Under the pieces are notes generated by a model. That model had not been told where the DNA came from. It saw nothing but the letters and a program-made list of their open reading frames with translations, and did not search any database. This document shows, piece by piece, positions 1 to 58,379 of a stretch of 64,000 nucleotides of DNA. Numbering within the stretch: position 1 is the first letter of the stretch; each line of letters opens with the position of its first letter. This DNA comes from Candidatus Syntropharchaeum butanivorans. Lineage in GTDB: Archaea; Halobacteriota; Syntropharchaeia; Syntropharchaeales; Syntropharchaeaceae. The DNA lies in the NCBI GenBank assembly GCA_001766825.1, contig LYOR01000001.1:30945-94944 (forward strand), written 5' to 3'. A program made the translations under genes and the position numbers.

Positions 1-129
1 GTGGTGGGCATACAGCCGGCAGTCGCGCTGACGCTCGTGGAGCTTGGGCTCAGGATAAGCTGGGGGGTTAAGACTGCACTTAACCTTGAGAAAGGGCTTG
101 AAATCCTTAGAAAGAAGAAAGACAAGTGA
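1..129 (+). CDS. STAS-domain protein (RsbS-like anti-sigma-factor antagonist), C-terminal fragment; 5' end lies outside the window
   Basis: Frame 1 reads VVGIQPAVALTLVELGLRISWGVKTALNLEKGLEILRKKKDK* and is open to the window edge. The GIQPxVAxTLVELGL block is the canonical C-terminus of RsbS/RsbR STAS domains. It sits immediately upstream of an RsbT-like kinase. Confidence 0.6.
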   Translation: MVGIQPAVALTLVELGLRISWGVKTALNLEKGLEILRKKKDK

Positions 130-139
130 GGATCACAGG

Positions 140-538
140 ATGGATGAGCAGACCATCGAGGTGAGGAGGGATATTGATGTAATCCTGGCCAGAAACGTGG
201 GTAGGAAGATGGCAAATGAGATCGGGTTTGGAGAGCTTGATCAGACTCGCATTACAACCGCAATCTCAGAGCTTGCCCGTAATATTGTCATTCATGCAAA
301 CAGAGGGAAGGTTGTGATCAGAGAGATCCAGAAGGGGGATAGAAGAGGGATTGAGGTTGTCTGTACAGACGATGGACCCGGGATCGAAGATATAGAGGCG
401 GCACTCAGGGATGGCTATACAACTGCAGGAGGGCTTGGGATCGGTATGACAGGCGCTAAGCGACTGATGGATGAGTTTCATGTGGAGTCTGTCGTGGGAG
501 TCGGTACCACGGTCATCGTGAAGAAGTGGTTGAGGTGA
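140..538 (+). CDS. RsbT-like serine kinase (GHKL/HATPase_c; anti-sigma regulatory factor family)
   Basis: MDEQTIEV...ARITTAISELARNIVIHA...GGLGIGMTGAKRLMDEFHVES aligns almost position-for-position with Bacillus RsbT (QARITTAISELARNI ... GLPGVKRLMDEF). ATG at 140 is in frame with the 86..538 ORF; the gene ends 11 nt after the STAS fragment. Confidence 0.75.
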   Translation: MDEQTIEVRRDIDVILARNVGRKMANEIGFGELDQTRITTAISELARNIVIHANRGKVVIREIQKGDRRGIEVVCTDDGPGIEDIEAALRDGYTTAGGLGIGMTGAKRLMDEFHVESVVGVGTTVIVKKWLR

Positions 539-1110
539 GGCTCGGTCTTGCAACACGTCCTGCTATAGGGTACACCGAGAACGGTGATGGACACTTCGTT
601 GAGCAGTGGGATGGCAAACTCCTTCTTGCAGTATTTGACGGACTGGGGCATGGAAAAGTAGCAGCAGAGGCGGCAGAGAGGTGTCGTGCGGTACTCAAGC
701 AGGTTTATCAGCGTAAGATACCGGAGATCTTTGAGGTTTGTCACGAGGAGCTCAGAAGGATGCGGGGGGTTGTGATGGGGATTGCACGAATTGAGCTTTC
801 CACACTCCTGCTTAATTACGCGGGGGTGGGGAACATCACGATGAAGATCGTGGGGCATGAGGAGAACACACACCTGATCTCGATGGATGGAATCGTGGGA
901 TACAACCTTCCAGGTATCAGGGTATTCCCGTATCAGCTCACCAGGGGGGATATCATCATGATGTACACGGATGGGATCTCCTCCTCACACCTCTCAGGAT
1001 ACTCAAAAGAGAAGATCAGATCGTATGATCCTCAGATTCTTGCAGAAGAGATCTTAAATAGATGTTCTAAACCGGAGGATGATGCAACAGTCCTTATTCT
1101 TCACGTATAA
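526..1110 (+). CDS. PP2C-type serine phosphatase (RsbX/SpoIIE-like)
   Basis: 194 aa. LLLAVFDGLGHGKVAAEAAE and YTDGISS are PP2C/SpoIIE metal-binding blocks. Size matches RsbX. It overlaps the upstream kinase by 13 nt (translational coupling). Confidence 0.65.
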   Translation: MVEVRLGLATRPAIGYTENGDGHFVEQWDGKLLLAVFDGLGHGKVAAEAAERCRAVLKQVYQRKIPEIFEVCHEELRRMRGVVMGIARIELSTLLLNYAGVGNITMKIVGHEENTHLISMDGIVGYNLPGIRVFPYQLTRGDIIMMYTDGISSSHLSGYSKEKIRSYDPQILAEEILNRCSKPEDDATVLILHV

Positions 1111-1213
1111 TCGTAAGGTTCTGGTCACATACTTCCCAAAACCATGGTGAGCAATGTTATATAGATGTACATCAAAACTATTATCCCATTCTTAGAGGAT
1201 AGGAGGTAATGTG

Positions 1214-1501
1214 ATGAGCAGATGGTTATGGCCCCAACCTGATAAAAAGAACTGGCTCGTGGTTACAGATGTAAAGAAAGGGATAATAAGGGTGTATAAC
1301 GAGAAAGGAGACCTCTTAACAGAAAAGAAAGATTTAAGTGAGGTTGTGGTTCGATTAATCGAGAAGAATTTCTTCGATACGGTTGGGATAAAGCTCTCCG
1401 AGCTTGGCGATCCCCTGAATCCCGTGTTCAGGACCGAGGAAGAGACGGGGAAGGGTGAAAAAAAAGGGGGGTTCGTGGAGCCTGACCCTATGTTTGCTTA
1501 G
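1214..1501 (+). CDS. hypothetical small protein
   Basis: ORF 1211..1501 with AGGAGG 7 nt upstream of ATG 1214 and an upstream TATA-like ttatatag. No recognisable domain. Confidence 0.35.
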   Translation: MSRWLWPQPDKKNWLVVTDVKKGIIRVYNEKGDLLTEKKDLSEVVVRLIEKNFFDTVGIKLSELGDPLNPVFRTEEETGKGEKKGGFVEPDPMFA

Positions 1502-4418: not shown

Positions 4419-4584
4419 TGGGGCTGGTGCGATTCGAACACACGACCGACGGGTCTCTCCGATCATCAGTGCTCCAACGGATCATCATAACGAAAGATCG
4501 CGTCCGATCTTTCGATTCAGCAGACCCGTTGTTCATCATATTACCGCTGGAGCCCGTCGCCCTTCCTGACTAGGCCACAGCCCC
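4419..4584 (-). tRNA. tRNA-Trp (anticodon CCA) with a ~93-nt intron carrying a box C/D sRNA
   Basis: Reverse complement: GGGGCTGTGGCCTAGTCAGGAAGGGCGACGGGCTCCAG[intron]..CCCGTCGGTCGTGTGTTCGAATCGCACCAGCCCCA. Acceptor GGGGCTG/CAGCCCC; anticodon stem ACGGG/CCCGT with loop CUCCAG; T-loop TTCGAAT. Intron contains ATGATGA (C), CTGA (D-prime), TGATGA (C-prime), CTGA (D). Confidence 0.8.
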
Positions 4585-14598: not shown

Positions 14599-15753
14599 GT
14601 GAAGATATTTTTGATCGGCATTGGACAGGGTGGAGGGAAGATTGCTGATCTCTTTCTGGAATATGATAGAAGAACGAGGCATAACTGTATTACTCGTGCA
14701 ATTGCGATAAATACAGCCAGATCAGATCTTCTCGGGCTGAAGAACATCCCGATGGAGGACAGGATACTCATAGGAGAGTCTATTGTCAAGGGGCATGGTG
14801 TGGGAGCGGATAACGAGCTGGGAGCAAGAGTTGCAGCTGAGGATATATACACGATACAGAGTGCCATAGATCAGAGAGGGACCCATGAAATTGATGCTTT
14901 TCTCATCGTAGCAGGTCTTGGCGGGGGAACAGGCTCCGGAGGTGCACCGGTCATTGCACGTCGTTTGAAGAAGCTTTACGTTGAGCCGGTTTATGGCCTT
15001 GGCATCCTCCCTGCAAGGGATGAGGGAGGGCTTTACTCGTTGAATGCCGCAAGGAGCCTGATGACCTTCGTGAAGGAGGTGGATAACCTCTTCCTCTTCG
15101 ATAATGAGCCCTGGAAGAAGGAAGGGGAGAGCCTGGAGGATGCCTACGCCTTCATGAACGAGGAGATTGTGAGAAGATTCGGGATACTGTTTGGGGCCGG
15201 TGAGTCGAATGAGGTGGGTCAGGTTGTTGTGGATGCCGCCGAGATAATTAACACGCTGAGGGGTGGTGGTATCTCAACGGTCGGTTATGCGGTTGAAGAG
15301 GTGAGTAAGAAAAAGAAGGGGGGGTTATTCAAGCGGGTGAAGAGGGATAAGTCCTCGCTTGAGACGCTTGATGCAACAACAAAGATAACATCCCTTACAA
15401 GGCGAGCAGTGATGGGGAGGCTCACACTCTCATGTGACATCTCGAGTGCAGAGCGTGGTCTGATTGTTGTCGCAGGCCCTCCCGAGGAACTCAGCAGGAA
15501 AGGGATCGAGAAGGCAAAGTTATGGGTTGAGGAGATGATTCGGGGGACCGAGGTACGTGGTGGGGATTATCCTGTACCAAAGAGTGACTACGTGGCAGCG
15601 GTCACCGTCTTCTCAGGAGTGACAGACGTCCCGAGGATCAAAGAGCTCCAGGAGCTTGCTGTAAACGCGCAGAAAACGATTCAGGAGTTTGATAGCAAGA
15701 AAGAAGAGAAGCATGAGTCGCTCTGGCGTGATGATATCAAGCCTCTGTTTTAA
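14599..15753 (+). CDS. cetZ: tubulin/FtsZ-superfamily GTPase, CetZ-like
   Basis: 384 aa. N-terminal GIGQGGGK and the tubulin signature GGGTGSG. Domain order and length fit archaeal CetZ rather than FtsZ. Confidence 0.7.
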   Translation: MKIFLIGIGQGGGKIADLFLEYDRRTRHNCITRAIAINTARSDLLGLKNIPMEDRILIGESIVKGHGVGADNELGARVAAEDIYTIQSAIDQRGTHEIDAFLIVAGLGGGTGSGGAPVIARRLKKLYVEPVYGLGILPARDEGGLYSLNAARSLMTFVKEVDNLFLFDNEPWKKEGESLEDAYAFMNEEIVRRFGILFGAGESNEVGQVVVDAAEIINTLRGGGISTVGYAVEEVSKKKKGGLFKRVKRDKSSLETLDATTKITSLTRRAVMGRLTLSCDISSAERGLIVVAGPPEELSRKGIEKAKLWVEEMIRGTEVRGGDYPVPKSDYVAAVTVFSGVTDVPRIKELQELAVNAQKTIQEFDSKKEEKHESLWRDDIKPLF

Positions 15754-17584: not shown

Positions 17585-19249
17585 ATGGATAGGTTAGAGG
17601 AGATAGAAAAAGAGGAGAGAGAGTGGGCGAAGCTCATAGAGGGATGTGAGCGAAAGCCAGAGTTCAAGACATACTCAGGTATACCTGTAAAGGCGTTATA
17701 TACGCCAGTGGATCTCAAGGACCATGACTATCTTGAGAAGGTTGGTTTTCCAGGAAAACCCCCCTATGTGAGAGGTGTCTACCCCACGATGTACCGGGGT
17801 AAGGTATGGACGACACGGATGTTCTCAGGATTTGGGACGCCTGAGGAGACAAATGAGCGGTGGAAGCTCCTTTACAAGGAAGGACAGACCGGGTTCAGTG
17901 CAGCGGTTGATTCACTGACACAGGCAGGGATGAGTCCGTTCGATCCAAGGGTTGGCCCAGAGGTTGGAACAGATGGTGTCCCGCTCTACTGTAAGCCGGC
18001 AGTTGCCGCGATGGTCGAGGGTTTACCGATCGATAAGATCGGGGTTGCACTGGTTGTTGAGGATGCGGCTGCGACGATCACAGCCTCGATGTACTTCAAC
18101 GTCTACATGGAACGGGGATTTGATCTCAAGACATGCATGGGAACAACCCAGAATGACCTCCTCTCAATGTCAATAGGGTGTCTGCAATACCGCTCGCTCG
18201 ATCCGGCCCACAGGCTGAAGCTTGCATGCGACCTGATCGAGTGGTGTACCGCGGATAAGAACGTGCCGAAGTGGAACCCGATAAACTTCACCACCTACAA
18301 CTATCGTGAGGGGGGTATTGACGCCATTCAGGAGCTTGCATTCGGGTTTGCGAACGCGATTGAGCATATAAATCACCTGCTTGAACGTGGAAGAAAGATA
18401 GAAGAGTTTGTCGGGAGGCTTGCATTCCATCTATCGGCCCACAATGACTTCTTCGAGGAGATTGCAAAGTACCGTGCCGCAAGGCGGATCTGGTACAAGC
18501 TGATGAAGGACAGGTATGGGGTAACAGACCCGCGTCTTCTCATCTTCAGGTTCCATATCCAGACCGCAGGCTCCACACTGACCCGGCAGCAACCGATGGT
18601 AAACATCGTGAGGATTGCGTATCAGGCGCTTGCAGCAGCCCTCGGTGGCGTCCAGTCGATGCACACAAACTCGTATGATGAGGCGCTCTGTCTCCCGAGT
18701 GAGGAGGCGGTGCTTCTGGCATTGAGGACGCAGCAGGTACTCAAAGAAGAGACGAACATCACGAACGTGATCGATCCCCTCGGTGGCTCGTATTACGTTG
18801 AATGGCTGACTGATGAGATCGAGGAACGGGTATGGCAGTACTTAGGAAAGATCGAAGAGGCCGGAGGGTTAACAAAGACGCTTGAGACCGGGTGGTTATA
18901 CAAGGAGATGACGACCGCGTTCAACAAGCGCAGAAGGATGATCGAGTCTGGAGAGGAGAAGGTCATCGGTGTTAACTGCTATGTTACCGACGAGGAGATC
19001 CCCATCCGTGTCTTCAGAACGAATCCGAACGCACAGGAGATAGAGAAGAAGCGGATAGAAAAGCTCATGGCAGAGCGGGATAACAGGAAGGTTGAGGAGC
19101 TGCTTGATAAACTCAGGAAGGTCTGTGAGCGCGAGGAGAATGTGATGCCGACTGTGATGGAACTCACCCGGGAAGGTGCGATAAACCAGGAGATATATGA
19201 CGTCTACAGGGAAGTCTGGGGTGAGTGGAAGGCCAATATAGTCTTCTGA
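17585..19249 (+). CDS. methylmalonyl-CoA mutase, large catalytic (substrate-binding TIM-barrel) subunit without B12 domain
   Basis: 554 aa with conserved MCM N-domain blocks (e.g. FTTYNYREGG); no B12 domain in this ORF. AGGTGA/AGAGATGG RBS upstream. Confidence 0.8.
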   Translation: MDRLEEIEKEEREWAKLIEGCERKPEFKTYSGIPVKALYTPVDLKDHDYLEKVGFPGKPPYVRGVYPTMYRGKVWTTRMFSGFGTPEETNERWKLLYKEGQTGFSAAVDSLTQAGMSPFDPRVGPEVGTDGVPLYCKPAVAAMVEGLPIDKIGVALVVEDAAATITASMYFNVYMERGFDLKTCMGTTQNDLLSMSIGCLQYRSLDPAHRLKLACDLIEWCTADKNVPKWNPINFTTYNYREGGIDAIQELAFGFANAIEHINHLLERGRKIEEFVGRLAFHLSAHNDFFEEIAKYRAARRIWYKLMKDRYGVTDPRLLIFRFHIQTAGSTLTRQQPMVNIVRIAYQALAAALGGVQSMHTNSYDEALCLPSEEAVLLALRTQQVLKEETNITNVIDPLGGSYYVEWLTDEIEERVWQYLGKIEEAGGLTKTLETGWLYKEMTTAFNKRRRMIESGEEKVIGVNCYVTDEEIPIRVFRTNPNAQEIEKKRIEKLMAERDNRKVEELLDKLRKVCEREENVMPTVMELTREGAINQEIYDVYREVWGEWKANIVF

Positions 19250-19256
19250 AGCCGGG

Positions 19257-19673
19257 GTGAGAATGATGGAGAAGGTGATAAGGGTCCTGATGTCAAAGCC
19301 CGGTGCTGATGGCCACTGGAGGGGAGCTGTGACCGTTGCAAGTGCACTGAGGGATGCAGGGATGGAGGTCATATTCGGCGGCTTCCAGTCAATTCCTGAG
19401 ATCGTTGAGACCGCAATCCAGGAGGATGTGGATGTGATCGGTATAAGCATCCATTCAATGGCGCACATGGCGTATGCAAAAGAGCTGATGGAACTTCTTG
19501 AGGAGAAAGGGGCAAAAGATGACTTTTTGGTCCTATTTGGTGGGATCATACCCGATGAGGATGTGCCAAAGCTCATGGAGCTTGGGGTGGCCGGTGTCTA
19601 TGGTCCAGGCACGCATACCGCAGATATCGTCCGTGATATAAAGGAGAAGCTCTCGGAGAAGCGGGCTGAATAA
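19257..19673 (+). CDS. methylmalonyl-CoA mutase B12-binding subunit
   Basis: 138 aa. DGHWRGAVTVASALRDAGMEV..GISIHS is the DxHxxG..GG cobalamin-binding Rossmann motif. 7 nt downstream of the large subunit. Confidence 0.8.
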   Translation: MRMMEKVIRVLMSKPGADGHWRGAVTVASALRDAGMEVIFGGFQSIPEIVETAIQEDVDVIGISIHSMAHMAYAKELMELLEEKGAKDDFLVLFGGIIPDEDVPKLMELGVAGVYGPGTHTADIVRDIKEKLSEKRAE

Positions 19674-43554: not shown

Positions 43555-43602
43555 ATTTTGATCCAAAGCTTATTTAAGTAAGGCGTGAGTTGAGGTACAA
43601 CT

Positions 43603-44844
43603 ATGGGCAGATACACGAGGTACGTAAGTTTATGGCTCCTCTGCACCACGCTTATACTTGTATCTATCAACCCTGCAGGTGGCGCCACGACCACTGAGCC
43701 CACCGTGATGGTCACAAACTACACGATTGATCCTGCTATTTTCATCCCAGGTGATAGAGGGACACTGACTGTCACAATCACAAACCGGGAAGCCTCATCA
43801 TCCCAGACGTTGACCACGACAAGCACAACCTCCACCACGACAACATCCACGACCTCAACCTCAGAGATCAAGACGAGGATCGAGGATGTCCGGCTCTATA
43901 CCTATAGCAGAGGTATCGGGTCGGTCAGAGAGGACATGAAGCGGGTTGTCTATGATAAGCCCGGGGCACTTGCACCTGGTGAGAGCATCACGCTGACCTT
44001 CCCGCTTGAGGTGGATGTTGAGGATGGGAGGTACCTGCTGGAGGTGAGGATCGCGATCGAGGACGGGATCAACGTCCGCTACCCCATCCTGATCACGGTC
44101 GATAGCTCAGCGGTTGAGCCTATCCTGATCGATATTCCCGATGAGATCTCGCTCAAGGGATCACGGGTGATCCAGCTTGCGGTTGCAAATACAAGGGCAA
44201 ACCGTGTCAAGGGTGTCAGGATCACACCACACGCTGAGAACTTTGAGTTTACACCTGAGAGCATCTTTATCGGGGAGATGAAATCAAACGAAAAGAGGAG
44301 GGTTAACTTCACACTCACACCGCTGAGACCAGGGTCATCTACGATCACGTTCAACGTCGAGTACAGGAACGGGGATAACCTCCATACCGTCTCACTCACC
44401 CGGGAGGTTGACGTGGTTGATCGCGACGATCTCAGGGTCATACTCGTCTCATGCCCTGGGGTGATACCAAGGGGTGGGAGCGGGAAGATAGAGCTTGATG
44501 TTGCAAACGGCAGATCGAACGATCTATCAAGCGTGCGCGTTATCCCGATACACGACGAGGCGTTCAGGATTTACCCGAGTGAGGTCTTCATCGGCGATAT
44601 GGAGCAGGACGATATATTCACCGCGGAGTTTGAGATCCATCCAACCACAGCCGCATCAGGTCTTGAGAATATATCATTCAAGGCGGTCTTCAGGGATATG
44701 GGTAACGATAAGCTATATGAGACAAATCCTCTTGTTGCCAGGATCAGAATCGAGGAGAATGGTGAGGATACACCTGGCTTTAGCATCATCTCCATTCTGG
44801 TTGCGCTTTTCATTGCAGGATTCATTATATTCCGGAAGAGGTGA
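43603..44844 (+). CDS. cell-surface protein with Thr-rich linker, CARDB-like Ig domains and PGF-CTERM sorting signal
   Basis: 413 aa. Signal peptide; TTTSTTSTTTTSTTSTS linker; repeated Ig-like blocks. C-terminus is TPGFSIISILVALFIAGFIIFRKR, i.e. the PGF tripeptide, a TM helix and basic residues (an archaeosortase substrate). Confidence 0.7.
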   Translation: MGRYTRYVSLWLLCTTLILVSINPAGGATTTEPTVMVTNYTIDPAIFIPGDRGTLTVTITNREASSSQTLTTTSTTSTTTTSTTSTSEIKTRIEDVRLYTYSRGIGSVREDMKRVVYDKPGALAPGESITLTFPLEVDVEDGRYLLEVRIAIEDGINVRYPILITVDSSAVEPILIDIPDEISLKGSRVIQLAVANTRANRVKGVRITPHAENFEFTPESIFIGEMKSNEKRRVNFTLTPLRPGSSTITFNVEYRNGDNLHTVSLTREVDVVDRDDLRVILVSCPGVIPRGGSGKIELDVANGRSNDLSSVRVIPIHDEAFRIYPSEVFIGDMEQDDIFTAEFEIHPTTAASGLENISFKAVFRDMGNDKLYETNPLVARIRIEENGEDTPGFSIISILVALFIAGFIIFRKR

Positions 44845-45052
44845 GTACTGCCTTTAATGGTTTTGTCCAGTTGAAAACCCATCAACCATAAATGGGTAAC
44901 GAAGCCCTACCTGTGATGGGTATTTCAGATTGAAGCAGGAGGGGATCGAGGAGAGGATAAATGCAAAAGGTGCCAGATGCTTCGGTGGGGAGGAAAGAGC
45001 ATTCGTTTGTGTTCAGGTAACTTTTATCAACCTCTGAATATAATAAAGATGT

Positions 45053-45340
45053 ATGCCAGATCAAATCTCACCCCCAGATCCTGGATACGAAGGTTCAAGG
45101 TTTCTTGCATGGCTATCAAAGCATGGAGGCATTCAGAATTTAAAAAGCTGTAAAAGCAAATGTGAACAGCTCGGGTTAAATATTGACACAATCCTCAGAG
45201 AATGGGGCACAGAGCGTATAAGGATCAATTTAAGCAGGGGAGAAAAAGTGGTTGTTTTAGTAGATAAGGTGTGGGCAGGTCAGTGGACAAGATATTATGA
45301 CACTTTTATTCCCCACCACAGACACTGGAAAAGAATATAA
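45053..45340 (+). CDS. hypothetical small protein in AT-rich islet
   Basis: 95-aa ORF in a low-GC stretch. No recognisable motif, so the coding call is weak. Confidence 0.2.
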   Translation: MPDQISPPDPGYEGSRFLAWLSKHGGIQNLKSCKSKCEQLGLNIDTILREWGTERIRINLSRGEKVVVLVDKVWAGQWTRYYDTFIPHHRHWKRI

Positions 45341-45400
45341 TTTTTCAGTTACCGAAAAGATTTAATACAGTTATGAAACATATCTACATATCTAATATAT

Positions 45401-45922
45401 ATGGTGATTATGATGAGTGAAGAGACTCCCCGGCTCCCAGAGGAACTGGAAAGGTATGTGGATAAGCCATACGGCGGCATCTTTGGGGACTCTGTAAGGA
45501 TAAGAATCATCGAGGAGATTGTAGCAGATCCTTACCGCGACTACCGCCCGAAAGACTTTGAAAAAATGTTTGGGGCTTCACCACCTACCATCAGAAGAGT
45601 TCTCAATGACCTTACGGCGCTTGGCTTACTTATAAAGGATTCACGCGATGTACAGCACCCGGTTTATCGCCCGAACCTGCGATCAAAGAAGATTATTGCA
45701 CTGACGTTTCTGGCTTATGCAGTAGTAGATGATAGAGACCACACGAAACTCATGGATGAAGCTATCTGGGATTACTACTCTAAAGTACTGAAAGAGGAAT
45801 TTGAACCTCTTGCAATTGCCACTACCCTGAGTTACGAAAATACAGGCAGAACCTGGAGAGGTTTTAGTGATATTAAGAGTATCACCGAAGAAAGCTGTAT
45901 CCTTGCAGTAGCGGAGGCCTGA
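45401..45922 (+). CDS. winged-helix transcriptional regulator, hypothetical
   Basis: 173 aa. N-terminal wHTH-like segment (RIRIIEEIVADPYRDYRPKDFEKMFGASPPTIRRVLNDLTALGLL) plus C-terminal domain. Confidence 0.45.
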   Translation: MVIMMSEETPRLPEELERYVDKPYGGIFGDSVRIRIIEEIVADPYRDYRPKDFEKMFGASPPTIRRVLNDLTALGLLIKDSRDVQHPVYRPNLRSKKIIALTFLAYAVVDDRDHTKLMDEAIWDYYSKVLKEEFEPLAIATTLSYENTGRTWRGFSDIKSITEESCILAVAEA

Positions 45923-45926
45923 GCTG

Positions 45927-46259
45927 ATGGAACATGAGGAAGGTGAGGAACGTACTCCTGAGAAAGGGCACATACGGGTCGCAATTGATCTCAGGAGTTT
46001 GTATGAATTCGATCCAGAGGATGTGTCAGTAGATATCTCTGTTGTACGTTACTCTAACCTCGCATATATCCAGGTTTCACATCGAGATGTTCATATCGAT
46101 TTTCTGGAGATGCCTGGCATCAAAAAAGACGGTAAAACTCGCATCAATGGAACACGGATTTATATGTCCCATGCGGCGGCTCAGAAGCTTGCCAGGGAGT
46201 TAAACGAGGTTTTAGAACGGGTTCATTCCAGCGGTGGGATGGAGAAATACCAGGGCTAA
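45927..46259 (+). CDS. hypothetical protein, co-oriented partner of the regulator above
   Basis: 110 aa, starts 5 nt after the previous stop. No motif I can name. Confidence 0.4.
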   Translation: MEHEEGEERTPEKGHIRVAIDLRSLYEFDPEDVSVDISVVRYSNLAYIQVSHRDVHIDFLEMPGIKKDGKTRINGTRIYMSHAAAQKLARELNEVLERVHSSGGMEKYQG

Positions 46260-46422
46260 AACCTTTTTCTATCACAAAATGTCAATCCTCGTAAGTTTCA
46301 ATTTGTTTGTGTTTAGGTAGTATGTAGGTAAGTAGGTAGGTAATATTGTTGAATTAAGAATATTTTGACATAAAGCTTATATACCGTAAAATCAATGTTG
46401 GGGATAATGGAGGTGAGAATAT

Positions 46423-46614
46423 TTGACTGAAGAGCGTGCCATTGTCAGTGTTATTGTTATTGTGGGGATTCTATTATTATTTGCATACACTCTTTTTCAA
46501 CTGAGCAAGTATGCAGATATGATGGCCGGGGCCTTTAAGAGTGTTGCACTCCTCGGCGTGGTTGCAGTAGTAGCCATAGCTGCGGGTATTGCACTAAAAA
46601 GGATGGTTAGTTAA
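46423..46614 (+). CDS. small single/double-pass membrane protein, hypothetical
   Basis: 63 aa, two hydrophobic helices (VIVIVGILLLFAYTLF, ALLGVVAVVAIAAGIAL). Confidence 0.3.
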   Translation: MTEERAIVSVIVIVGILLLFAYTLFQLSKYADMMAGAFKSVALLGVVAVVAIAAGIALKRMVS

Positions 46615-46939
46615 GTCACTCGGAGAAGAGGTAAAAAAAGGTTAACGCAGAGATGGCTGTGGTAGTAGTTCCACCAAACCACTTTATCACCGAACCTCAC
46701 TCCCGGCAACCCCCTCAAACGGCCTCTGCAGATCCAATCCCCTCATCCATCTTGCTTACAGGCTCGATGAGCTCCTGTTTACTCATCTGGCATAGCATCT
46801 GGTGATGAAGTAGCGTATCGCGGCTTTGTTTTATCTGAGATGGGGGATTGATCAGGTAACTTCCCTGCGTTTTCTACCCCACGCTTGAACTCGTGGACAT
46901 GGATGAATAAAAAGAAGAGGGCTTTAAACCTGGTGATCT

Positions 46940-46952
46940 AAGCCGCTGGTGG
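46940..46952. repeat. attL-type direct repeat: 13-nt copy of the tRNA-Thr 3' end
   Basis: aagccgctggtgg is identical to 58380..58392. That copy is the 3' acceptor strand, discriminator and part of the T-stem of the tRNA-Thr gene. Chance expectation for a 13-mer in 64 kb is ~0.001. Confidence 0.6.
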
Positions 46953-47049
46953 ACATGTTAAAACCACACCATAAGCTTGCCACTACCCCGTTATTTTCCA
47001 TCAATAAAAAGGTTGTGGTTTAATACCGATAATCCATAAGGATATAATC

Positions 47050-47205
47050 ATGGAAGGCTTAAAAAGATATCGGGTGCATGAGGTCAAGGGATCACTCAAG
47101 GTATCGCTGCCACGTGTGCTTGCTCAGGCTGTGGGTATCAGGAAGGGGGATGAGGTTGTGTGGGTCATCACGAAGGAAGGTTTGACCCTAAAGAAGATTT
47201 CTTGA
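47050..47205 (+). CDS. AbrB/MazE-type (SpoVT-AbrB swapped-hairpin) small DNA-binding protein
   Basis: 51 aa MEGLKRYRVHEVKGSLKVSLPRVLAQAVGIRKGDEVVWVITKEGLTLKKIS. This is the looped-hinge-helix pattern (KxSxxGxxxIPxxxR..GxxxGDxVxV). Below the ORF-track cutoff. Overlaps the antisense ORF 47124..47645. Confidence 0.45.
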   Translation: MEGLKRYRVHEVKGSLKVSLPRVLAQAVGIRKGDEVVWVITKEGLTLKKIS

Positions 47206-47645
47206 GTTAAATCCTGTCCTCTTCCATCCAATAAAGGACATACTCCACATAACCCCATACTCATCCGGTGCTTTCTTGGACAGGGTTGACCTGTCCACAC
47301 ATCAAAGAGGACAAAGGGGTTACCTGCCTTTGCCTTCTCCCACTCCTTCTTTATCTCTGGATCCTGCTTTGCTACCTCAAGGATCTTCTTAGCCTTCTTC
47401 ACAGTCTTATCTGAGATGAGTAAGCCCTGGTCTCTGGCTTTTTTGACTGCTAACTCAATGGATCTTCCTTTGTCTTCGGTGGGGGGTTCTTGACCCACCA
47501 CCGAACTTTTGAAGAGAGGTTTACCATTTTTATCTTTACCTGCTAATTGAGTAGCCTCTTGCCTCCTCCTTGCTCTCTCCTCCTCAATCTCTGCAAGCTT
47601 AAGGACAACTTCGGCTTTCTGTGCTGTGGTGAGGTGTCTTCTCAT
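47124..47645 (-). CDS. basic DNA-binding-like protein (ParB/KorB-type HTH resemblance), hypothetical
   Basis: 173 aa. N-terminal LTTAQKAEVVLKLAEIEEERARRRQ..KTVKKAKKILEVAK. The C-terminal third has low complexity and overlaps the AbrB-like ORF, so the 3' end may be mis-called. Confidence 0.35.
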   Translation of the reverse strand: MRRHLTTAQKAEVVLKLAEIEEERARRRQEATQLAGKDKNGKPLFKSSVVGQEPPTEDKGRSIELAVKKARDQGLLISDKTVKKAKKILEVAKQDPEIKKEWEKAKAGNPFVLFDVWTGQPCPRKHRMSMGLCGVCPLLDGRGQDLTQEIFFRVKPSFVMTHTTSSPFLIPTA

Positions 47646-47943
47646 AATGCCTCAAAAATGGCATATTTTTCACACCTCAGGTATCATAATACCCCCTCCC
47701 CTTCGAGATGCTCGAAAAACCCCTATTTTGAGGCTGTGGGTGGAGCAAAAAAAGTTGTCAAGGAGGTAACCGAGAGGCAAGCTTATCATTGCTCCACCCA
47801 CGATGGCACACAGCTCCCTTATTCCGGGCGGTTGCCCCGCAGCACAGGCTGCCACACCAGTGGTATTCAACCGCTGTTCATGGCGCTTGTTCTTACGCGG
47901 CATGGATGCCAACCCTCACGCCCACCAATGGATTAAGTGTGAT

Positions 47944-48288
47944 TCACACTGATTCGCCGCCGCCACCGAGGCCCCTGATGCTATAGATGATGATGCCTGC
48001 CATCAATGCAATCACCACGATGAGCATCATAGCCCACCCAGTGTTCATGACAGAAACGACCTTCTGTGAGGCTGTGTAAAACTCGCTGCTCTGGTCAATT
48101 GAAGCGATGTCATACACCTGATCGGCGACATAAACAGAGATCGCGCCGATGATCACGATGGTGAAGAGAACCATGCCAATCGTTGATACACTATCAACCT
48201 GCGCGCAGTGATCCTGCATGAACCTTCTTGCCTCAGCCTTTGCCGCTTCCATGATAAGCCTGCACCTGTCAACTACATGACCAAGCAT
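47944..48288 (-). CDS. two-helix membrane protein, hypothetical (element-encoded)
   Basis: 114 aa, two long hydrophobic helices, GGGGESV tail. Confidence 0.35.
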   Translation of the reverse strand: MLGHVVDRCRLIMEAAKAEARRFMQDHCAQVDSVSTIGMVLFTIVIIGAISVYVADQVYDIASIDQSSEFYTASQKVVSVMNTGWAMMLIVVIALMAGIIIYSIRGLGGGGESV

Positions 48289-48373
48289 ATCTGTTTCACC
48301 TCCATTAACACGATTAAATATTATCCATTACTATTTAAACCTACTCCTCTCTCGAATCAACTTCACACACAAT

Positions 48374-50083
48374 TTATCTACGATTTTTTGTTCTTTTTCT
48401 TCTTCCCGACTTCACACCGAGCATCTCCAATGGTGTGGCAACCGGGGCCACTTCCCCGAACCCGAATGCCCCGAGGTATGTGGATATATCCTTCTTTTTC
48501 TGCTTCCTGGGCTTCCGCTTTTTCGTTGGTGGCCTCCCCGGTGGTTTTTGACGTGGGGTGAACGTGACTGGCTCAATCCTCATATCCGGAAGATACAAAA
48601 CACGCGGGCGTGATGTCACCGCCTGCCTGACCTGCCTGAAAACATCAGCAAGCGGCTTGCTTTGCGCTTTGGTTTTGCTTGATGTCTGGGTTTTTGTTTC
48701 TACTGTGGGGGTAGATACAACCTCGATGATGGATTGAGTTTTTCCCTCCCCCTGTGGGGTTTCCTGTCCTGTAGTTTCCTGCCCTGTAGTTTTTCTTGTG
48801 AATGATGGTACAGGTATTGTTGGTGTCTTGCCTGATGCGCGTGCTTTGAAGCGGGGTGTGCCTGCAGCGCCAAGCATACCCATAAATGTTTCAATACCGC
48901 CACGAGCCGGTATGCGTGGCTTGGGCTTTGACTCGATGACCATCTTTTTAGCCCTGGGTCGTTTTATATCTTCAACAACAGACTTTGCAGCCTTATTCAC
49001 ATCTTGCCCAACTCTCTCAAAAATATCCCTGAGTCTGGCTTCTCTGATCATCGATTCAAGCCCACGATCAAGCTCAAGTGTCTTGACCCTCCTTGTGGCT
49101 GTTCGTGTTTCTGTTCGTGTCTCTGTTCGTGATTTAAATGCAGTGGCCGGCTTCCGTGTCCTTCTGTATGCAGATTTACCAAACCTATTCATCCACCTCT
49201 CCTGTGGGGTCTCCCGCCCTGTGGTCTTTTTCGGGCGTTCGTGTACAGATTTACCAAGCTTATCTGCCCATTTCTTAAACTCAGAAGGCTTTGGCTCAAA
49301 CCCAAACAGCTTTTTCAAATCCGGTGTGAGCTCAACAAAGTAATCCCCGGGTATTGCCTTACCACCCCATCCAATCTCAGGACGCCTCACCCCGCCTATC
49401 TTCTCTCTGAACCGTGGGAGATAGGGTTTCTCAGTAAACACACTATATCGGGGCTTTGCACCAAAGTATATGCCCTGGCGTGGTTTATGTCCGACTCTAA
49501 GCTTTCTGTATCCATATCTCACAGCATGAATCTGGGGTCTCTCGAACCTGGCTTCCTCATAAAATGGCTTGACCAGCTCAAAACCCCACGCTGGCTTCGT
49601 CTTTGGTGTGAAAGGCTGTACAGTACCACCCTTACCCTTTGGTGTGTCACTTATCCCTATTAGGGAGCCTTTTCTTGCACCAGTACCACGTGGCTCAAAT
49701 TGTTTGAAGGTTTCTTTTCCAAGGAAATACCCCTTCACATCTGCGAGTTGTGACATGTATTTCTCATAAGCGGCGATATTCCCAAGTGATACTTCCTTCT
49801 TCGTGGTTTCTCCAATCCTGTATATGTCACCGGAGACCTTCGTGGTTTTAGTTGACACCTTAACACTTTTTACCACAGGTTTTGTGCCAAACACAAGGGC
49901 TTTGTAATCCACTTTAACCGGTTGCCCTTCCTCCATGATTCTCGAAAACTCGGTTTTTCCAACCAGCGGCTTGCTTTTCGATCCCCACCTGATACCCAGA
50001 CCTTCATATTCAGGTGTTGTGATTCTGACCGGCTTTGGTGCATGCTCAACAGCCTTTCCCCCTACCTTACCAAAAAACCACAT
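48374..50083 (-). CDS. very basic repeat-containing protein, hypothetical (virion/nucleoprotein candidate)
   Basis: 569 aa, Lys/Arg/Pro/Gly-rich. Internal tandem repeats RTETRTETRTATRR and TTGQETTGQETPQ, matching DNA repeats near 49100 and 48770. C-terminal KKRKPRKQKKK. Confidence 0.5.
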   Translation of the reverse strand: MWFFGKVGGKAVEHAPKPVRITTPEYEGLGIRWGSKSKPLVGKTEFSRIMEEGQPVKVDYKALVFGTKPVVKSVKVSTKTTKVSGDIYRIGETTKKEVSLGNIAAYEKYMSQLADVKGYFLGKETFKQFEPRGTGARKGSLIGISDTPKGKGGTVQPFTPKTKPAWGFELVKPFYEEARFERPQIHAVRYGYRKLRVGHKPRQGIYFGAKPRYSVFTEKPYLPRFREKIGGVRRPEIGWGGKAIPGDYFVELTPDLKKLFGFEPKPSEFKKWADKLGKSVHERPKKTTGRETPQERWMNRFGKSAYRRTRKPATAFKSRTETRTETRTATRRVKTLELDRGLESMIREARLRDIFERVGQDVNKAAKSVVEDIKRPRAKKMVIESKPKPRIPARGGIETFMGMLGAAGTPRFKARASGKTPTIPVPSFTRKTTGQETTGQETPQGEGKTQSIIEVVSTPTVETKTQTSSKTKAQSKPLADVFRQVRQAVTSRPRVLYLPDMRIEPVTFTPRQKPPGRPPTKKRKPRKQKKKDISTYLGAFGFGEVAPVATPLEMLGVKSGRRKRTKNRR

Positions 50084-51615
50084 TGCTGCAAGATCACCGG
50101 CAAGCTCAAAAACTCACCCGGCTCTCCCCTGAGCTTCTCTGGAGCTGTTTTAACCCACTCTTTTGTGCTTGTCACAACCTCCTTGCCTGCTGCAACCGGC
50201 CCCTCTGTTACCGCAGTCTCTGCAAGTGCCCCCAAACCAACCACATCGCGCGTAAAAGCAATCGGGAACATCACCATTGATTCCGGTCCTGCACTGTGCC
50301 TGTATTTCTTCTCCCCCCATGCCTCAAGCTTGAGTACGGCCTTATGGAACGGTCGTTTTTCCTTCTCTATCTCCTTTTCAAGGGCTTCTTTTCGTAGCTT
50401 ACGCTCATGTAATTCCTTCTTCTTTGCCTCCTGCTTAACAATATACTCACGTGAATACCCGATGAGTTCGCGGTACCCCGGTGGTAGTACCTTTATCTCC
50501 TTCGGTATTTGTTCAGGGGAGGCTGTCACACGTGCTGGTGGTTGATAATATTCCATTACAGTGGGTGATGTCTCCTTCTGCTTCCCTGCCTTTTTATACC
50601 ACTCAGGTGGAGTGGTTGTCACACGTGCTGGTGTTGGGGATGGAAGGGGTTTGCCGGAACCTATTACAATATCCTCAAAACTCAGATACCCTTTCTTTTT
50701 AGGCTGCTGCTGCTTTTGTGGCTGTGGTTTTGGCTTTGGCTTTACCGGCTCTGTCCAAGTTGCTATAAGCTCATTTTGCTTGCCAAGTGAGAAGGAAAAA
50801 GGTACATCAGCGGGTATGAGCTTCTTCACATTCTTCGCAGCCTGCTCATAAGCCTGCCGGATGGATTTTGCCACAGCTTCAAACTCCTTGAGCCTACCAC
50901 CGGCCCATGCAGGAGCCTTGATGCCATATTTTTTACCACCAAACTCAACTTCTGTCCTGACCTGCTTTGCAACACGTGATGGATAATCACCACGCTCAAG
51001 CTTCCATTGAAGTATGCCAAGATACTCAGATTTGGTAGGAGGGTTTGGAAGTGGTACAAAGGTTGGCTTGCCATGCTCCCACAGCACAGTACCCCATTTA
51101 TAGCCAAGTGCTCGTGCAACATCAGGTGGGTTTGCAGCAGCACCCATCATCTGTACCTTGCCATCCTCAATCTTAACCCACATGCCGCCTGAGTGGGTTT
51201 GGGATGGCTTGATGGGGGGTCTTCGTTGTGTGGGTGTTCCTGACTCCGGGATATAGAGAATACCATACTTTGTTTGAACCTGTTTGTACCACGTGCCGCT
51301 GAGCTTTATCCTGCCCATTGGCTTTCCTCTGCCGGCCCTGTACTCCTTCATCATCTTCTCTTTTCGCTCACGCTCCCGCCGGATTCTCTTCCTCCTCCTT
51401 CTCTCACGTTCTGCCTTCTCACGTGCAATTCGCTGCTCAATCTCCCTCCTCTTCCTCTCAAGCTCTGCCTGCTGCTCTGCACGATATCGCTTGAGGGCTT
51501 CCTCACGCATGAGTGAGGGGTAGATGGGTATATCACGCTGGATATCTTGCTTCAGCTTCTGGTATTCGGATTCGCTCAGTTTCATGATATCTCCCTCAAC
51601 ATTCAATCTCCACAT
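50062..51615 (-). CDS. basic coiled-coil protein, hypothetical (element-encoded)
   Basis: 517 aa. N-terminal charged helix (KRYRAEQQAELERKRREIEQRIAREKAERERRRRKRIRRERERKEK), PKPKPQPQKQQQPKKK linker, second helical region. Overlaps the previous gene by 22 nt. Confidence 0.5.
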   Translation of the reverse strand: MWRLNVEGDIMKLSESEYQKLKQDIQRDIPIYPSLMREEALKRYRAEQQAELERKRREIEQRIAREKAERERRRRKRIRRERERKEKMMKEYRAGRGKPMGRIKLSGTWYKQVQTKYGILYIPESGTPTQRRPPIKPSQTHSGGMWVKIEDGKVQMMGAAANPPDVARALGYKWGTVLWEHGKPTFVPLPNPPTKSEYLGILQWKLERGDYPSRVAKQVRTEVEFGGKKYGIKAPAWAGGRLKEFEAVAKSIRQAYEQAAKNVKKLIPADVPFSFSLGKQNELIATWTEPVKPKPKPQPQKQQQPKKKGYLSFEDIVIGSGKPLPSPTPARVTTTPPEWYKKAGKQKETSPTVMEYYQPPARVTASPEQIPKEIKVLPPGYRELIGYSREYIVKQEAKKKELHERKLRKEALEKEIEKEKRPFHKAVLKLEAWGEKKYRHSAGPESMVMFPIAFTRDVVGLGALAETAVTEGPVAAGKEVVTSTKEWVKTAPEKLRGEPGEFLSLPVILQQCGFLVR

Positions 51616-51868
51616 TAAAATATGCAGATCTCTTATAAAACTGTTTGGTGTGTGATTTACAATTCAAAAAATGAAAAAAGAGGGTGATAATCCCCCTCAA
51701 GTGTATATTTCCACACCACAATCGTCTAATTTCTCCCTTACAAAGGGAGAACCCCGCAGCCGCTCCATAATCGTCTCAAAGATCGAAAACGCTGCATTCA
51801 AGTCATTGTCCTCGATCTCGATTGCAAGCACATCCTCGCCGATTGAAAGCTGAATCCTGGCCATTCAA

Positions 51869-52084
51869 TCATCCTCCTGGTAGATTGCAATCAGGATGAT
51901 GTATTTGGGTTTTTTTCCGGAGCATCTCTCGAAGCTCGGCGTAGGCTTCACGTCTCTGCTGCCCATTATTATGCTTCCCCGGGGGCGCATAAGTCTGAAG
52001 TTGCTCCCATGGACTGCAATTCTCGCAGAATTCGGTGCCGGCCGTCGGACACCCGCAACAGAAGCACCATGTGTCTTTCATCAT
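51869..52084 (-). CDS. small zinc-finger protein (element-encoded)
   Basis: 71 aa with CFCCGC, CENC and a C-terminal HHPDC. Confidence 0.35.
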   Translation of the reverse strand: MMKDTWCFCCGCPTAGTEFCENCSPWEQLQTYAPPGKHNNGQQRREAYAELREMLRKKTQIHHPDCNLPGG

Positions 52085-52548: not shown

Positions 52549-52552
52549 CCAT

Positions 52553-55775: not shown

Positions 55776-55783
55776 ATTTTTTT

Positions 55784-56035: not shown

Positions 56036-56088
56036 GTAGGGTTCCTCCTTCTTTTTTTCCAACCTCTTCCAACCATTTCCCAAGAAAT

Positions 56089-56256: not shown

Positions 56257-56330
56257 GTTTCAAACCTCCAATTTCTACAACAAAAATGGGGAAACTTATA
56301 TATATGTGTTAATAACAAATAGTTTGTTAG

Positions 56331-58318: not shown

Positions 58319-58379
58319 ATCAATCCGTCCTCTGCCTCCATCGGATATATATGGCAGAGGCTTATGATGTGGTTAAAAC

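What the first reader, a model, noticed from the sequence alone, without database searches (positions are those of the whole stretch)
1..1110. Bacterial-type stressosome output module (RsbS-RsbT-RsbX) in an archaeon that has no sigma factors
The kinase is strikingly similar to Bacillus RsbT (ARITTAISELARNI; G.KRLMDEF). It is preceded by a STAS C-terminus of RsbS type and followed by a translationally coupled PP2C phosphatase of RsbX size. In bacteria this module controls sigma-B through partner switching. Archaea lack sigma factors, so the downstream target here is unknown. It could be a transcription factor, a CetZ/cytoskeletal output or a metabolic enzyme.
Basis: partly seen in the sequence, partly recalled or inferred. 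Interest (0 to 1): 0.55.

Follow-up and report, generated by a model that had tools for sequence, protein, structure and literature searches.

The report
Bacterial-type stressosome operon in an archaeon
The window starts inside a complete, intact four-gene "minimal stressosome" operon (rsbR-rsbS-rsbT-rsbX) in the butane-oxidising archaeon Candidatus Syntrophoarchaeum butanivorans; reviews already note such modules in some archaea, so what remains open is which protein the released kinase acts on.

Summary
Window 1-129 encodes the last 42 residues of an RsbS-type STAS protein. Window 140-538 encodes a 132-aa RsbT-type kinase, 52-58 % identical to proteins named RsbT. Window 526-1110 encodes an overlapping 194-aa RsbX-type PP2C phosphatase. 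The source is Ca. Syntrophoarchaeum butanivorans, and the locus sits among typical archaeal genes. Identical contigs supply the rest upstream: the full 119-aa RsbS and a 280-aa RsbR. It is therefore a complete rsbRSTX module, not only an output part. All phospho-acceptor and catalytic residues are invariant across five archaeal orthologous loci (four Syntrophoarchaeales lineages plus Methanoperedens). By homology, RsbR and RsbS form a scaffold that holds RsbT, stress-triggered phosphorylation releases RsbT, and RsbX resets the system. No RsbU_N, RsbV or RsbW gene, further STAS, kinase or PP2C gene, or other recognisable signalling gene lies within about 10 kb upstream or 64 kb downstream. In Methanoperedens the same module is followed directly by an RsbU_N-GAF protein. 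FtsZ adjacency is not conserved. A conserved small ORF downstream has its own promoter-like TATA box, and its homologues elsewhere are not linked to stressosome genes. Published papers already state that rsbRSTX occurs in some archaeal species. This is a new member of a known kind.

The parts
1..129 (+). 3' end of rsbS: the last 42 codons plus stop of a 119-aa single-domain STAS protein. The gene starts 231 nt before the window (L001 9631-9990).
   Evidence: the fragment's best PDB hits are RsbS chains; the full protein P0002 matches Listeria RsbS at 2.7e-27, B. subtilis RsbS at 3.8e-26 and Moorella MtS at 2.9e-25, end to end. Ser56 in VDSF aligns with the Listeria phospho-site S56 and is invariant in 5 archaeal orthologues.
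140..538 (+). rsbT: a 132-aa GHKL-type Ser/Thr switch kinase.
   Evidence: Pfam HATPase_c_2, 3.1e-13. It is 52-58 % identical over the full length to proteins named RsbT by NCBI or JGI, and 53 % with no gaps to the Peribacillus deserti protein that NCBI names RsbT. The N-box E44/N48, the G1 box D78-G-x-G81 and the G2 box G97GLGIG102 are present and invariant in archaeal orthologues.
526..1110 (+). rsbX: a 194-aa single-domain PPM (SpoIIE-type PP2C) feedback phosphatase. Its GTG start overlaps rsbT by 13 nt; an alternative GTG at 535 overlaps by 4 nt.
   Evidence: Pfam SpoIIE, 1.5e-11. PDB best hits are Moorella MtX 3zt9 (6.7e-22) and B. subtilis RsbX 3w40 (2.1e-10). The acidic residues D21, D38, D149, D185 and D186 are invariant in archaeal orthologues.
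1111..1210 (+). Spacer between rsbX and the small ORF. It holds a conserved archaeal TATA-like box (GTTATATAG, about 1155-1163) preceded by a conserved (C)GTGGTGA(G/A)CA block, and a GGAGG ahead of the start codon.
   Evidence: in an alignment of four Syntrophoarchaeales loci, the TATA block is the only strongly conserved part of the spacer. Its role as a promoter is inferred, not shown.
1211..1501 (+). Conserved small ORF of 95-96 aa, kept next to rsbX in all Syntrophoarchaeales loci examined. It is probably an independent gene, and membership of the module is not shown.
   Evidence: It is 76-77 % identical between species and is also adjacent in S. caldarius. The family comprises about 42 clusters of 68-127-aa proteins. 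Homologues in other archaea are not next to stressosome genes. The AF2 model has four strands plus a helix with pLDDT above 93 for residues 1-62. There is no structural match in the PDB.

Best explanation
The window begins inside a complete, functional rsbR-rsbS-rsbT-rsbX operon, the 'minimal stressosome' of bacterial type. It is chromosomally fixed in Ca. Syntrophoarchaeum butanivorans and conserved throughout the Syntrophoarchaeales.

Mechanism, inferred by homology to the Bacillus, Listeria, Vibrio and Moorella systems:
- RsbR (a helical N-terminal sensor domain plus a C-terminal STAS domain) and RsbS (STAS only) co-assemble into a large scaffold that sequesters the kinase RsbT.
- On a stress signal, RsbT phosphorylates RsbS-Ser56 and RsbR-Ser176/Thr210 and is released.
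- Free RsbT then binds, or phosphorylates, an effector protein.
- RsbX dephosphorylates the STAS proteins and resets the complex.

Archaea have no sigma factors, and no effector is encoded next to the operon. The effector must therefore be encoded elsewhere in the genome. Most likely it is a signalling protein with an RsbU_N-like docking domain, as found directly downstream of the orthologous module in Methanoperedens.

Shown here: gene content, gene order, overlap of the reading frames, homology, conservation of all key residues, and archaeal context. Inferred: complex assembly, the phosphorylation cycle, the nature of the signal and the output.
For: - Complete R-S-T-X order, with a 4-nt rsbR/rsbS overlap, a 10-nt rsbS-rsbT gap and a 13- or 4-nt rsbT/rsbX overlap.
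- RsbR matches V. vulnificus RsbR (7o0i, 7.2e-35) and Listeria RsbR (1.9e-33).
- RsbS matches RsbS chains at up to 2.7e-27.
- RsbT is 52-58 % identical to named RsbT proteins.
- RsbX is closest to MtX and RsbX.
- The phospho-acceptors S56 (RsbS) and S176/T210 (RsbR), the kinase N, G1 and G2 boxes and the phosphatase acidic residues are invariant in five archaeal orthologous loci whose proteins are only 43-86 % identical. This indicates purifying selection.
- The same operon, with the same downstream synteny (small ORF, ThiDN, DapF, aIF2-beta), occurs in five further Syntrophoarchaeales loci, L008, L009, L012 and L014 among them, drawn from independent samples.
- The module's GC content (0.495) equals that of its flanks (0.50).
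- Methanoperedens carries rsbRSTX followed at once by an RsbU_N-GAF protein, a dCache-GAF protein and a MEDS histidine kinase.
- Locus L020, from an organism I could not identify, has an RsbU_N-HisKA-HATPase gene between rsbT and rsbX.
- The literature describes the same cycle and the same four-gene module with varied outputs (PMC9237108).
Against: - No effector was found. There is no RsbU_N, STAS, HATPase_c_2, PP2C or other recognisable signalling gene in the 64-kb window plus 10 kb upstream, nor in the flanks of the other Syntrophoarchaeales loci. The rest of the genome could not be searched.
- The RsbR N-terminal domain reaches Pfam RsbRD_N only below threshold (E 1e-3 to 7e-3, in 3 of 6 orthologues) and gives no PDB hit by profile. 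The sensor type is therefore unresolved.
- Nothing biochemical is known for any archaeal module.
- Recent B. subtilis work, to judge from its title, finds stress sensing that depends on RsbT but not on the stressosome (PMC11821858, title as listed). Even the bacterial model of where the signal enters is therefore not settled.
Confidence: 0.8

Rival explanations
1. The conserved small ORF immediately downstream (window 1211-1501) is the archaeal output. Released RsbT would bind or phosphorylate this 95-aa protein, which has a beta-meander plus helix domain, a flexible linker and a conserved C-terminal EPDPMFA peptide. This would make a five-gene system with a new type of effector.
For: The ORF is adjacent to rsbX in every Syntrophoarchaeales locus examined, whereas the upstream neighbour of rsbR varies. 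It is as conserved as the module proteins, at 76-77 % identity. No oligo-T terminator is visible between rsbX and the ORF. It forms a confidently predicted domain with a conserved C-terminal motif.
Against: The spacer holds a conserved TATA-like box about 50 nt upstream of the ORF's start, which suggests an independent promoter. Three homologues of the family in other archaea (L015, L018, L019) have no STAS, kinase or PP2C neighbours. Methanoperedens has the module without this ORF. The ORF shows no similarity to RsbU_N or to any known fold.
Confidence: 0.1
2. This is a simple RsbV/RsbW-like or SpoIIAA/AB-like partner-switching pair that does not assemble into a stressosome. The kinase would act as an anti-factor for some archaeal protein.
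For: The best curated NCBIfam model for the kinase is SpoIIAB (60.7 bits, below its cut-off of 135). GenBank names the proteins generically, as anti-sigma regulatory factor and anti-sigma factor antagonist.
Against: No RsbT model appears among the NCBIfam matches, so that ranking is uninformative. By direct comparison the kinase scores 157-172 bits against RsbT proteins and 37 bits against SpoIIAB. Both STAS proteins match RsbS and RsbR far better than SpoIIAA-like TM1442 (E about 5e-3). The two-STAS arrangement (RsbR with a sensor domain, plus RsbS), together with RsbX, is the stressosome signature (PMC9237108).
Confidence: 0.06
3. The module regulates cell division or cell shape through the neighbouring tubulin homologues (FtsZ divergent from rsbR, CetZ 13 kb downstream).
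For: FtsZ is transcribed divergently from rsbR, sharing a 152-nt intergenic region. A CetZ gene lies at window 14599-15753.
Against: FtsZ adjacency exists only in S. butanivorans. Three other Syntrophoarchaeales loci have ribosomal protein S8e there, and S. caldarius has unrelated genes. The adjacency coincides with a rearrangement that moved the TFIIE-alpha / HD-CGI121 block to window positions around 29-35 kb. CetZ is separated from the module by more than 10 housekeeping genes.
Confidence: 0.03
4. Artefact or relic: a bacterial contig mis-binned into an archaeal MAG, or a decaying horizontally acquired cassette without function.
For: All close characterised relatives are bacterial, and the module is patchy among archaea.
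Against: The genes lie on the same contigs as archaeal marker genes in at least six independent assemblies. GC content equals that of the host. All four ORFs are intact, with invariant catalytic residues, across lineages that have diverged to 58-86 % identity. The archaeal RsbT proteins group together in a neighbour-joining tree: Syntrophoarchaeales 98 %, the Methanoperedens group 100 %, and both together 74 % bootstrap. This speaks for long residence in these archaea.
Confidence: 0.01

Closest known systems
Moorella thermoacetica MtR-MtS-MtT-MtX stressosome module (PDB 3zt9 MtX, 2vy9 MtS)
   Same: It is a four-gene R-S-T-X arrangement in a thermophilic anaerobe. MtX is the best solved-structure match of the phosphatase (6.7e-22), and MtS matches RsbS at 2.9e-25. 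From my own knowledge of the Quin et al. 2012 paper (cited in PMC4976288), its output is not sigma-B.
   Different: In Moorella the effector gene adjoins the module (a diguanylate cyclase, from memory). Here no effector gene is adjacent, and the host is an archaeon.
Vibrio vulnificus rsbRSTX 'minimal stressosome' (PDB 7o0i)
   Same: It has the same four-gene module without sigB, rsbU, rsbV or rsbW. The VvRsbR STAS domain and linker give the best PDB hit for the archaeal RsbR (7.2e-35). The output partner was not proven there either (PMC9237108).
   Different: Vibrio RsbR carries a haem globin-coupled O2 sensor and is followed by two-component genes (VvD1 and VvD2). The archaeal RsbR has a different, RsbRD_N-like helical domain that matches Pfam only below threshold, and no two-component genes are adjacent.
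Bacillus subtilis / Listeria monocytogenes stressosome (RsbRA/RsbR1-RsbS-RsbT, with RsbX) of the sigB operon
   Same: The four proteins are homologous, and the phospho-sites are conserved (Listeria RsbS S56 and RsbR1 T209; T175 is replaced by Ser). RsbT is about 47-53 % identical.
   Different: There is no RsbU-RsbV-RsbW-SigB cascade and no sigma factor in the host. rsbX follows rsbT directly. No RsbR paralogue was seen in the 74 kb examined.
Candidatus Methanoperedens rsbRSTX locus (L010, L011)
   Same: It is the closest relative outside the Syntrophoarchaeales, and also archaeal. Identities to the S. butanivorans proteins are RsbS 67 %, RsbT 58 %, RsbR 50 % and RsbX 43 %. It groups with the Syntrophoarchaeales clade in the RsbT tree with 74 % bootstrap.
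   Different: Methanoperedens keeps an adjacent candidate output: an RsbU_N-GAF protein, then a dCache-GAF protein and a MEDS histidine kinase. The Syntrophoarchaeales loci lack it and have the small ORF instead.

Membership tests
rsbRSTX minimal stressosome module | An RsbS-type antagonist: a single-domain STAS protein of about 120 aa with the conserved phospho-acceptor Ser (B. subtilis S59, Listeria S56). | tested here: met
   P0002 is 119 aa and aligns end to end with Listeria, B. subtilis and Moorella RsbS (E 2.7e-27 to 2.9e-25). Ser56 in VDSF aligns with Listeria S56 and is invariant in 5 archaeal orthologues. Only the last 42 aa lie inside the window.
rsbRSTX minimal stressosome module | An RsbR-type co-antagonist: a variable N-terminal sensor domain plus a C-terminal STAS domain with conserved phospho-acceptor Thr residues (Listeria T175 and T209). 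| tested here: met
   P0001 is 280 aa and is encoded just upstream of the window. Its STAS domain and linker match V. vulnificus and Listeria RsbR (7.2e-35 and 1.9e-33). T210 aligns with T209, and S176, also phosphorylatable, aligns with T175.
rsbRSTX minimal stressosome module | An RsbR N-terminal domain of a recognised sensor class (non-haem globin RsbR_N / RsbRD_N, haem globin, PAS or LOV). | tested here: inconclusive
   Pfam RsbRD_N gives E 0.0024-0.0065 for this protein and reaches E 0.1 or better in 3 of 6 orthologues (best 9.5e-4). All are below the gathering score. A profile search of the PDB found nothing significant.
rsbRSTX minimal stressosome module | An RsbT-type switch kinase: a GHKL (HATPase_c_2) protein of about 133 aa with N, G1 and G2 boxes, closer to RsbT than to RsbW, SpoIIAB or sensor histidine kinases. 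| tested here: met
   HATPase_c_2, 3.1e-13. It is 52-58 % identical, at E 1e-41 to 1e-43, to proteins named RsbT. SpoIIAB in the PDB scores only 37 bits, RsbW 17 bits and histidine kinases at most 18 bits. E44, N48, DxGxG and GGLGIG are present.
rsbRSTX minimal stressosome module | An RsbX-type feedback phosphatase: a single-domain PPM of about 190-200 aa with the metal-binding acidic residues, encoded directly after rsbT. | tested here: met
   It is 194 aa. Best hits are MtX 3zt9 (6.7e-22) and RsbX 3w40 (2.1e-10). D21, D38, D149, D185 and D186 are invariant. The gene overlaps rsbT by 13 or 4 nt.
rsbRSTX minimal stressosome module | Assembly of RsbR and RsbS into a complex of about 1.5-1.8 MDa that binds RsbT, with stress-dependent phosphorylation and release. 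| not testable with these tools
   This needs biochemistry or cryo-EM. It is inferred only from homology.
rsbRSTX minimal stressosome module | An associated downstream effector. It is often, but not always, an RsbU_N-containing signalling protein; the literature says most modules with a globin-coupled RsbR sensor lack a detectable RsbU_N (PMC9237108). | tested here: not met
   No RsbU_N, GGDEF, HisKA, REC or further STAS, PP2C or kinase gene lies within 10 kb upstream or 64 kb downstream, nor in the flanks of other Syntrophoarchaeales loci. The feature is met in the Methanoperedens relative. It is not a defining feature of the core module, and the whole genome was not searchable.
SigB partner-switching cascade (RsbU-RsbV-RsbW-SigB) | Presence of the RsbV antagonist, the RsbW anti-sigma kinase and a sigma-B gene linked to the module. 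| tested here: not met
   None is present in the 74 kb examined. Archaea lack sigma factors (established knowledge). The locus is not a member of this extended cascade.

The most novel reading that the evidence does not exclude
In Syntrophoarchaeales the stressosome kinase has been rewired to an archaea-specific effector that carries no RsbU_N domain. One candidate is the conserved neighbouring small protein of the WxWxQP...DPMF family. Another is a component of the archaeal basal transcription or alkane-oxidation machinery. Either would be a new output class for partner-switching signalling in a domain of life without sigma factors.
Probability: 0.15. Interest if true: 0.65.

Novelty: new member of a known kind. 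Interest (0 to 1): 0.3.

Why it matters
No archaeal stressosome has been studied experimentally in the literature I could search. This locus is a compact, clearly intact example in an environmentally important alkane-oxidising archaeon. It would be a reasonable entry point for asking what stressosomes control when no sigma factor exists. The sister arrangement in Methanoperedens, with an adjacent RsbU_N-GAF protein, gives a concrete hypothesis to test. That such modules occur in archaea, and that most rsbRSTX modules signal to something other than sigma-B, is already in the literature. The finding therefore extends a known distribution and does not reveal a new system.

Tried and rejected
- A scan of GTDB genome contigs with the kinase returned only one distant spirochaete hit (L007).
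- A search for RsbU_N proteins with the Methanoperedens domain returned only Methanoperedens-like fragments. It says nothing about Syntrophoarchaeum, because the word-index search is insensitive at that distance.
- An offline phmmer search of RsbR, RsbS, RsbT, RsbX and RsbU_N against all six-frame ORFs of the window and of all fetched loci found no extra paralogues.
- A profile search of the PDB with the RsbR N-terminal domain gave only noise.
- A single-sequence AF2 model of the small ORF was poor (pLDDT 50). The model built from an alignment was good, but Foldseek against the PDB gave no hit better than E 0.25.
- I looked up Peribacillus deserti RsbT expecting a canonical sigB operon. It lies in a secondary RsbR/S/T cluster without sigB, so it serves only as a named relative.
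- FtsZ or CetZ as the output was rejected on synteny.
- A direct-repeat search for att sites of the putative integrated element found nothing convincing.
- The sigma-70 promoter scanner was not used, because it does not cover archaeal promoters.
Full report
**What is in the sequence**

The first 1.1 kb of the window holds three co-directional reading frames.
- Window 1-129 is the last 42 codons of a gene that runs off the window start.
- Window 140-538 encodes a 132-aa protein with an ATG start behind a GAGGA.
- Window 526-1110 encodes a 194-aa protein. Its GTG start overlaps the preceding gene by 13 nt. A second GTG at 535 overlaps by 4 nt and was chosen by some gene callers.

The 42-aa fragment has RsbS chains as its best PDB matches: B. 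subtilis 6jhk at 1.2e-7, Listeria 6qcm at 4e-7 and Moorella MtS at 1e-6. RsbR chains come about six orders of magnitude weaker.

The 132-aa protein is a GHKL ATPase of the anti-sigma-kinase type. Pfam HATPase_c_2 scores 50.3 bits against 43.8 bits for HATPase_c. In NCBIfam, SpoIIAB scores 60.7 bits and sensor histidine kinases at most 17.8 bits.

The 194-aa protein is a single-domain PPM phosphatase (Pfam SpoIIE, 1.5e-11). Its best solved relatives are the stressosome feedback phosphatases Moorella MtX (3zt9, 6.7e-22) and B. subtilis RsbX (3w40, 2.1e-10).

**Whose genome it is**

All proteins are exact matches to GenBank and UniRef entries of Candidatus Syntrophoarchaeum butanivorans. Eleven public contigs carry the identical kinase.

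One of them, L001, is identical to the window at 9968 of 9969 overlapping bases and extends 9.9 kb further upstream. The neighbouring genes are archaeal housekeeping genes. They include aIF2-beta with a TRAM domain, ThiDN, DapF, AspRS, RNase P p30, Spt5-NGN, SecE and FtsZ. The window also holds a match to the archaeal C/D-box sRNA family sR3, overlapping a long tRNA match.

The module's GC content (0.495) equals that of its flanks (0.50). Contamination or mis-binning is excluded.

**What lies upstream**

The contigs show a complete operon.
- rsbR encodes 280 aa (L001 8792-9634).
- rsbS encodes 119 aa and overlaps rsbR by 4 nt.
- rsbT follows after a 10-nt gap.
- rsbX comes last.

RsbR matches the linker and STAS domain of V. 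vulnificus RsbR (7o0i, 7.2e-35) and nearly the whole Listeria RsbR1 (1.9e-33). Full-length RsbS aligns end to end with Listeria, B. subtilis and Moorella RsbS (2.7e-27 to 2.9e-25).

The kinase is 52-58 % identical over its full length to proteins that NCBI or JGI name RsbT (Herpetosiphon, Peribacillus, many metagenomic sequences; E 1e-41 to 1e-43). SpoIIAB scores only 37 bits.

**Functional residues**

The following residues are present.
- RsbS Ser56, which aligns with the Listeria phospho-site S56 named in PMC8942246.
- RsbR Thr210, which aligns with T209, and Ser176, which replaces T175.
- In the kinase, E44 and N48 (N box), D78-x-G-x-G (G1) and GGLGIG (G2).
- In the phosphatase, D21, D38, D149, D185 and D186.

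All are invariant in five archaeal orthologous loci. Across those loci the proteins have diverged to 67-86 % (RsbS), 50-77 % (RsbR), 58-72 % (RsbT) and 43-63 % (RsbX) identity. This is the pattern of a working system under purifying selection.

**Distribution and origin**

The same operon occurs in the following archaeal sources.
- Two loci of unnamed Syntropharchaeales (L008, L009).
- Syntrophoarchaeum sp. GoM_oil (L012).
- S. caldarius (L014).
- A further JGI contig.
- Candidatus Methanoperedens (L010, L011).

I built a neighbour-joining tree of the 120 best RsbT hits plus two RsbT sequences translated from fetched loci. In it the Syntrophoarchaeales sequences form one clade and the Methanoperedens group another. 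In a bootstrap on a 48-sequence subset these clades are supported at 98 % and 100 %, and the two together at 74 %. This gives moderate support for one acquisition in, or exchange between, these related archaeal lineages. The protein is short and the method simple, so I treat this as a lead.

**The output**

This is the real open point. Within the 64-kb window and the 10 kb upstream there is no second STAS, GHKL kinase or PP2C gene, no RsbU_N domain and no other recognisable signalling gene. This rests on:
- Pfam tables from the contig look-ups;
- Pfam scans of most remaining ORFs of at least 150 aa;
- phmmer against every six-frame ORF.

The flanks of the other Syntrophoarchaeales loci are equally empty.

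In Methanoperedens the module is followed at once by three genes: a 799-aa protein with an N-terminal RsbU_N domain and several GAF domains, a dCache-GAF protein and a MEDS histidine kinase. In locus L020, from an organism I could not identify, an RsbU_N-HisKA-HATPase gene sits between rsbT and rsbX. RsbU_N is the domain through which RsbT activates RsbU in Bacillus (PMC9237108).

The most economical inference is that the Syntrophoarchaeum RsbT also acts on a signalling protein, one encoded elsewhere in the genome. I could not search the rest of the genome, and a word-index search with the Methanoperedens RsbU_N domain found only Methanoperedens proteins.

**The neighbours**

*FtsZ.* It is divergent from rsbR only in S. 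butanivorans. Three other Syntrophoarchaeales loci have ribosomal protein S8e, preceded in two of them by TFIIE-alpha and HD-CGI121, and S. caldarius has unrelated genes. In S. butanivorans the TFIIE-alpha / HD-CGI121 block sits at window positions around 29-35 kb, so a rearrangement created the FtsZ adjacency. CetZ is 13 kb away. There is no support for a cytoskeletal output.

*The small ORF.* The 95-aa ORF after rsbX (window 1211-1501) is kept in every Syntrophoarchaeales locus and is 76-77 % identical between species. It belongs to a family of about 42 clusters of 68-127-aa proteins. The family shares a WxWxQP...G.I.VY...IE.NF core and a C-terminal DPMF/Y motif. The predicted fold is four strands plus a helix, with pLDDT above 93, and it has no PDB match.

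Three points argue against a role in the module.
- The spacer before the ORF holds a conserved TATA-like box.
- Three homologues in other archaea have no stressosome neighbours.
- Methanoperedens lacks the ORF next to its module.

I rate it an unlikely effector, at about 0.1.

**Comparison with what is known**

The locus meets every sequence-level criterion of the rsbRSTX 'minimal stressosome'. Published work describes that module as widely conserved in bacteria 'and even some archaeal species', and as coupled to diverse, often unidentified, downstream modules rather than to SigB (PMC9237108; PMC10014275 citing Pane-Farre 2017; PMC8942246). It is not a member of the extended RsbU-RsbV-RsbW-SigB cascade.

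GenBank already labels the genes as anti-sigma factor antagonist, anti-sigma regulatory factor and SpoIIE. I found no paper that discusses the module in Syntrophoarchaeum, and none that characterises any archaeal stressosome.

**Verdict**

The finding is real, correctly identified and well delimited, apart from being cut by the window edge. It is a new member of a known kind, and its archaeal occurrence was already noted in general terms.

Its value is as a clean archaeal test case for what a stressosome controls without sigma factors. The Methanoperedens RsbU_N-GAF arrangement offers a testable lead.

Interest is 0.3. The most novel reading not excluded is a rewired, archaea-specific effector, with probability about 0.15.

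Noticed in passing
window 1211-1501 (+): An uncharacterised family of small archaeal proteins (68-127 aa, about 42 clusters at 50 % identity). It has a conserved WxWxQP...G.I.VY...IE.NF domain, confidently predicted as four strands plus a helix, then a variable acidic/basic linker and a C-terminal DPMF/Y motif. There is no Pfam hit and no PDB fold match. The spacer upstream holds a conserved TATA-like box.
   Followed up: partly
window ~43600-58452: A run of eight or more ORFs without Pfam hits, one of 1015 aa with a weak PHROG hit. It ends in a tyrosine integrase (57122-58318, minus strand) directly beside tRNA-Thr(CGT) (58381-58452, minus strand). GC content is lower and AT skew is strongly negative. 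This is probably an integrated mobile element or provirus. No att repeat was found.
   Followed up: partly
window 4419-4584 (-): Rfam finds a tRNA match spanning 166 nt that overlaps a match to the C/D-box sRNA family sR3 (4464-4544). I read this as a tRNA with an sRNA-bearing intron, the archaeal tRNA-Trp type of arrangement. ARAGORN did not call this tRNA.
   Followed up: no
L001 7503-8639 (upstream of window) and window 14599-15753: Two tubulin-family genes lie near the operon: FtsZ divergent from rsbR, and a CetZ (Tubulin + CetZ_C) 13 kb downstream. The FtsZ adjacency is specific to S. butanivorans and results from a rearrangement. The TFIIE-alpha / HD-CGI121 / FGAR-AT block that lies upstream of rsbR (beyond the S8e gene) in two other Syntrophoarchaeales loci sits at window positions around 29-35 kb here.
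   Followed up: partly
L010 8963-14454 (Ca. Methanoperedens): rsbRSTX is followed by a 799-aa RsbU_N + multi-GAF + coiled-coil protein with no recognisable enzymatic output domain, then a dCache-GAF protein and a MEDS-HisKA-HATPase kinase. This is a candidate archaeal stressosome output chain.
   Followed up: partly
L020 4853-7889: A variant module from an organism I could not identify. It has a PAS-STAS RsbR, RsbS, RsbT, then an RsbU_N-HisKA-HATPase histidine kinase inserted between rsbT and rsbX.
   Followed up: no
window 17585-19660: Genes for the large subunit and the B12-binding subunit of methylmalonyl-CoA mutase, next to HEAT-repeat and CetZ genes. This may be relevant to butane or acyl-CoA metabolism in this organism.
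   Followed up: no
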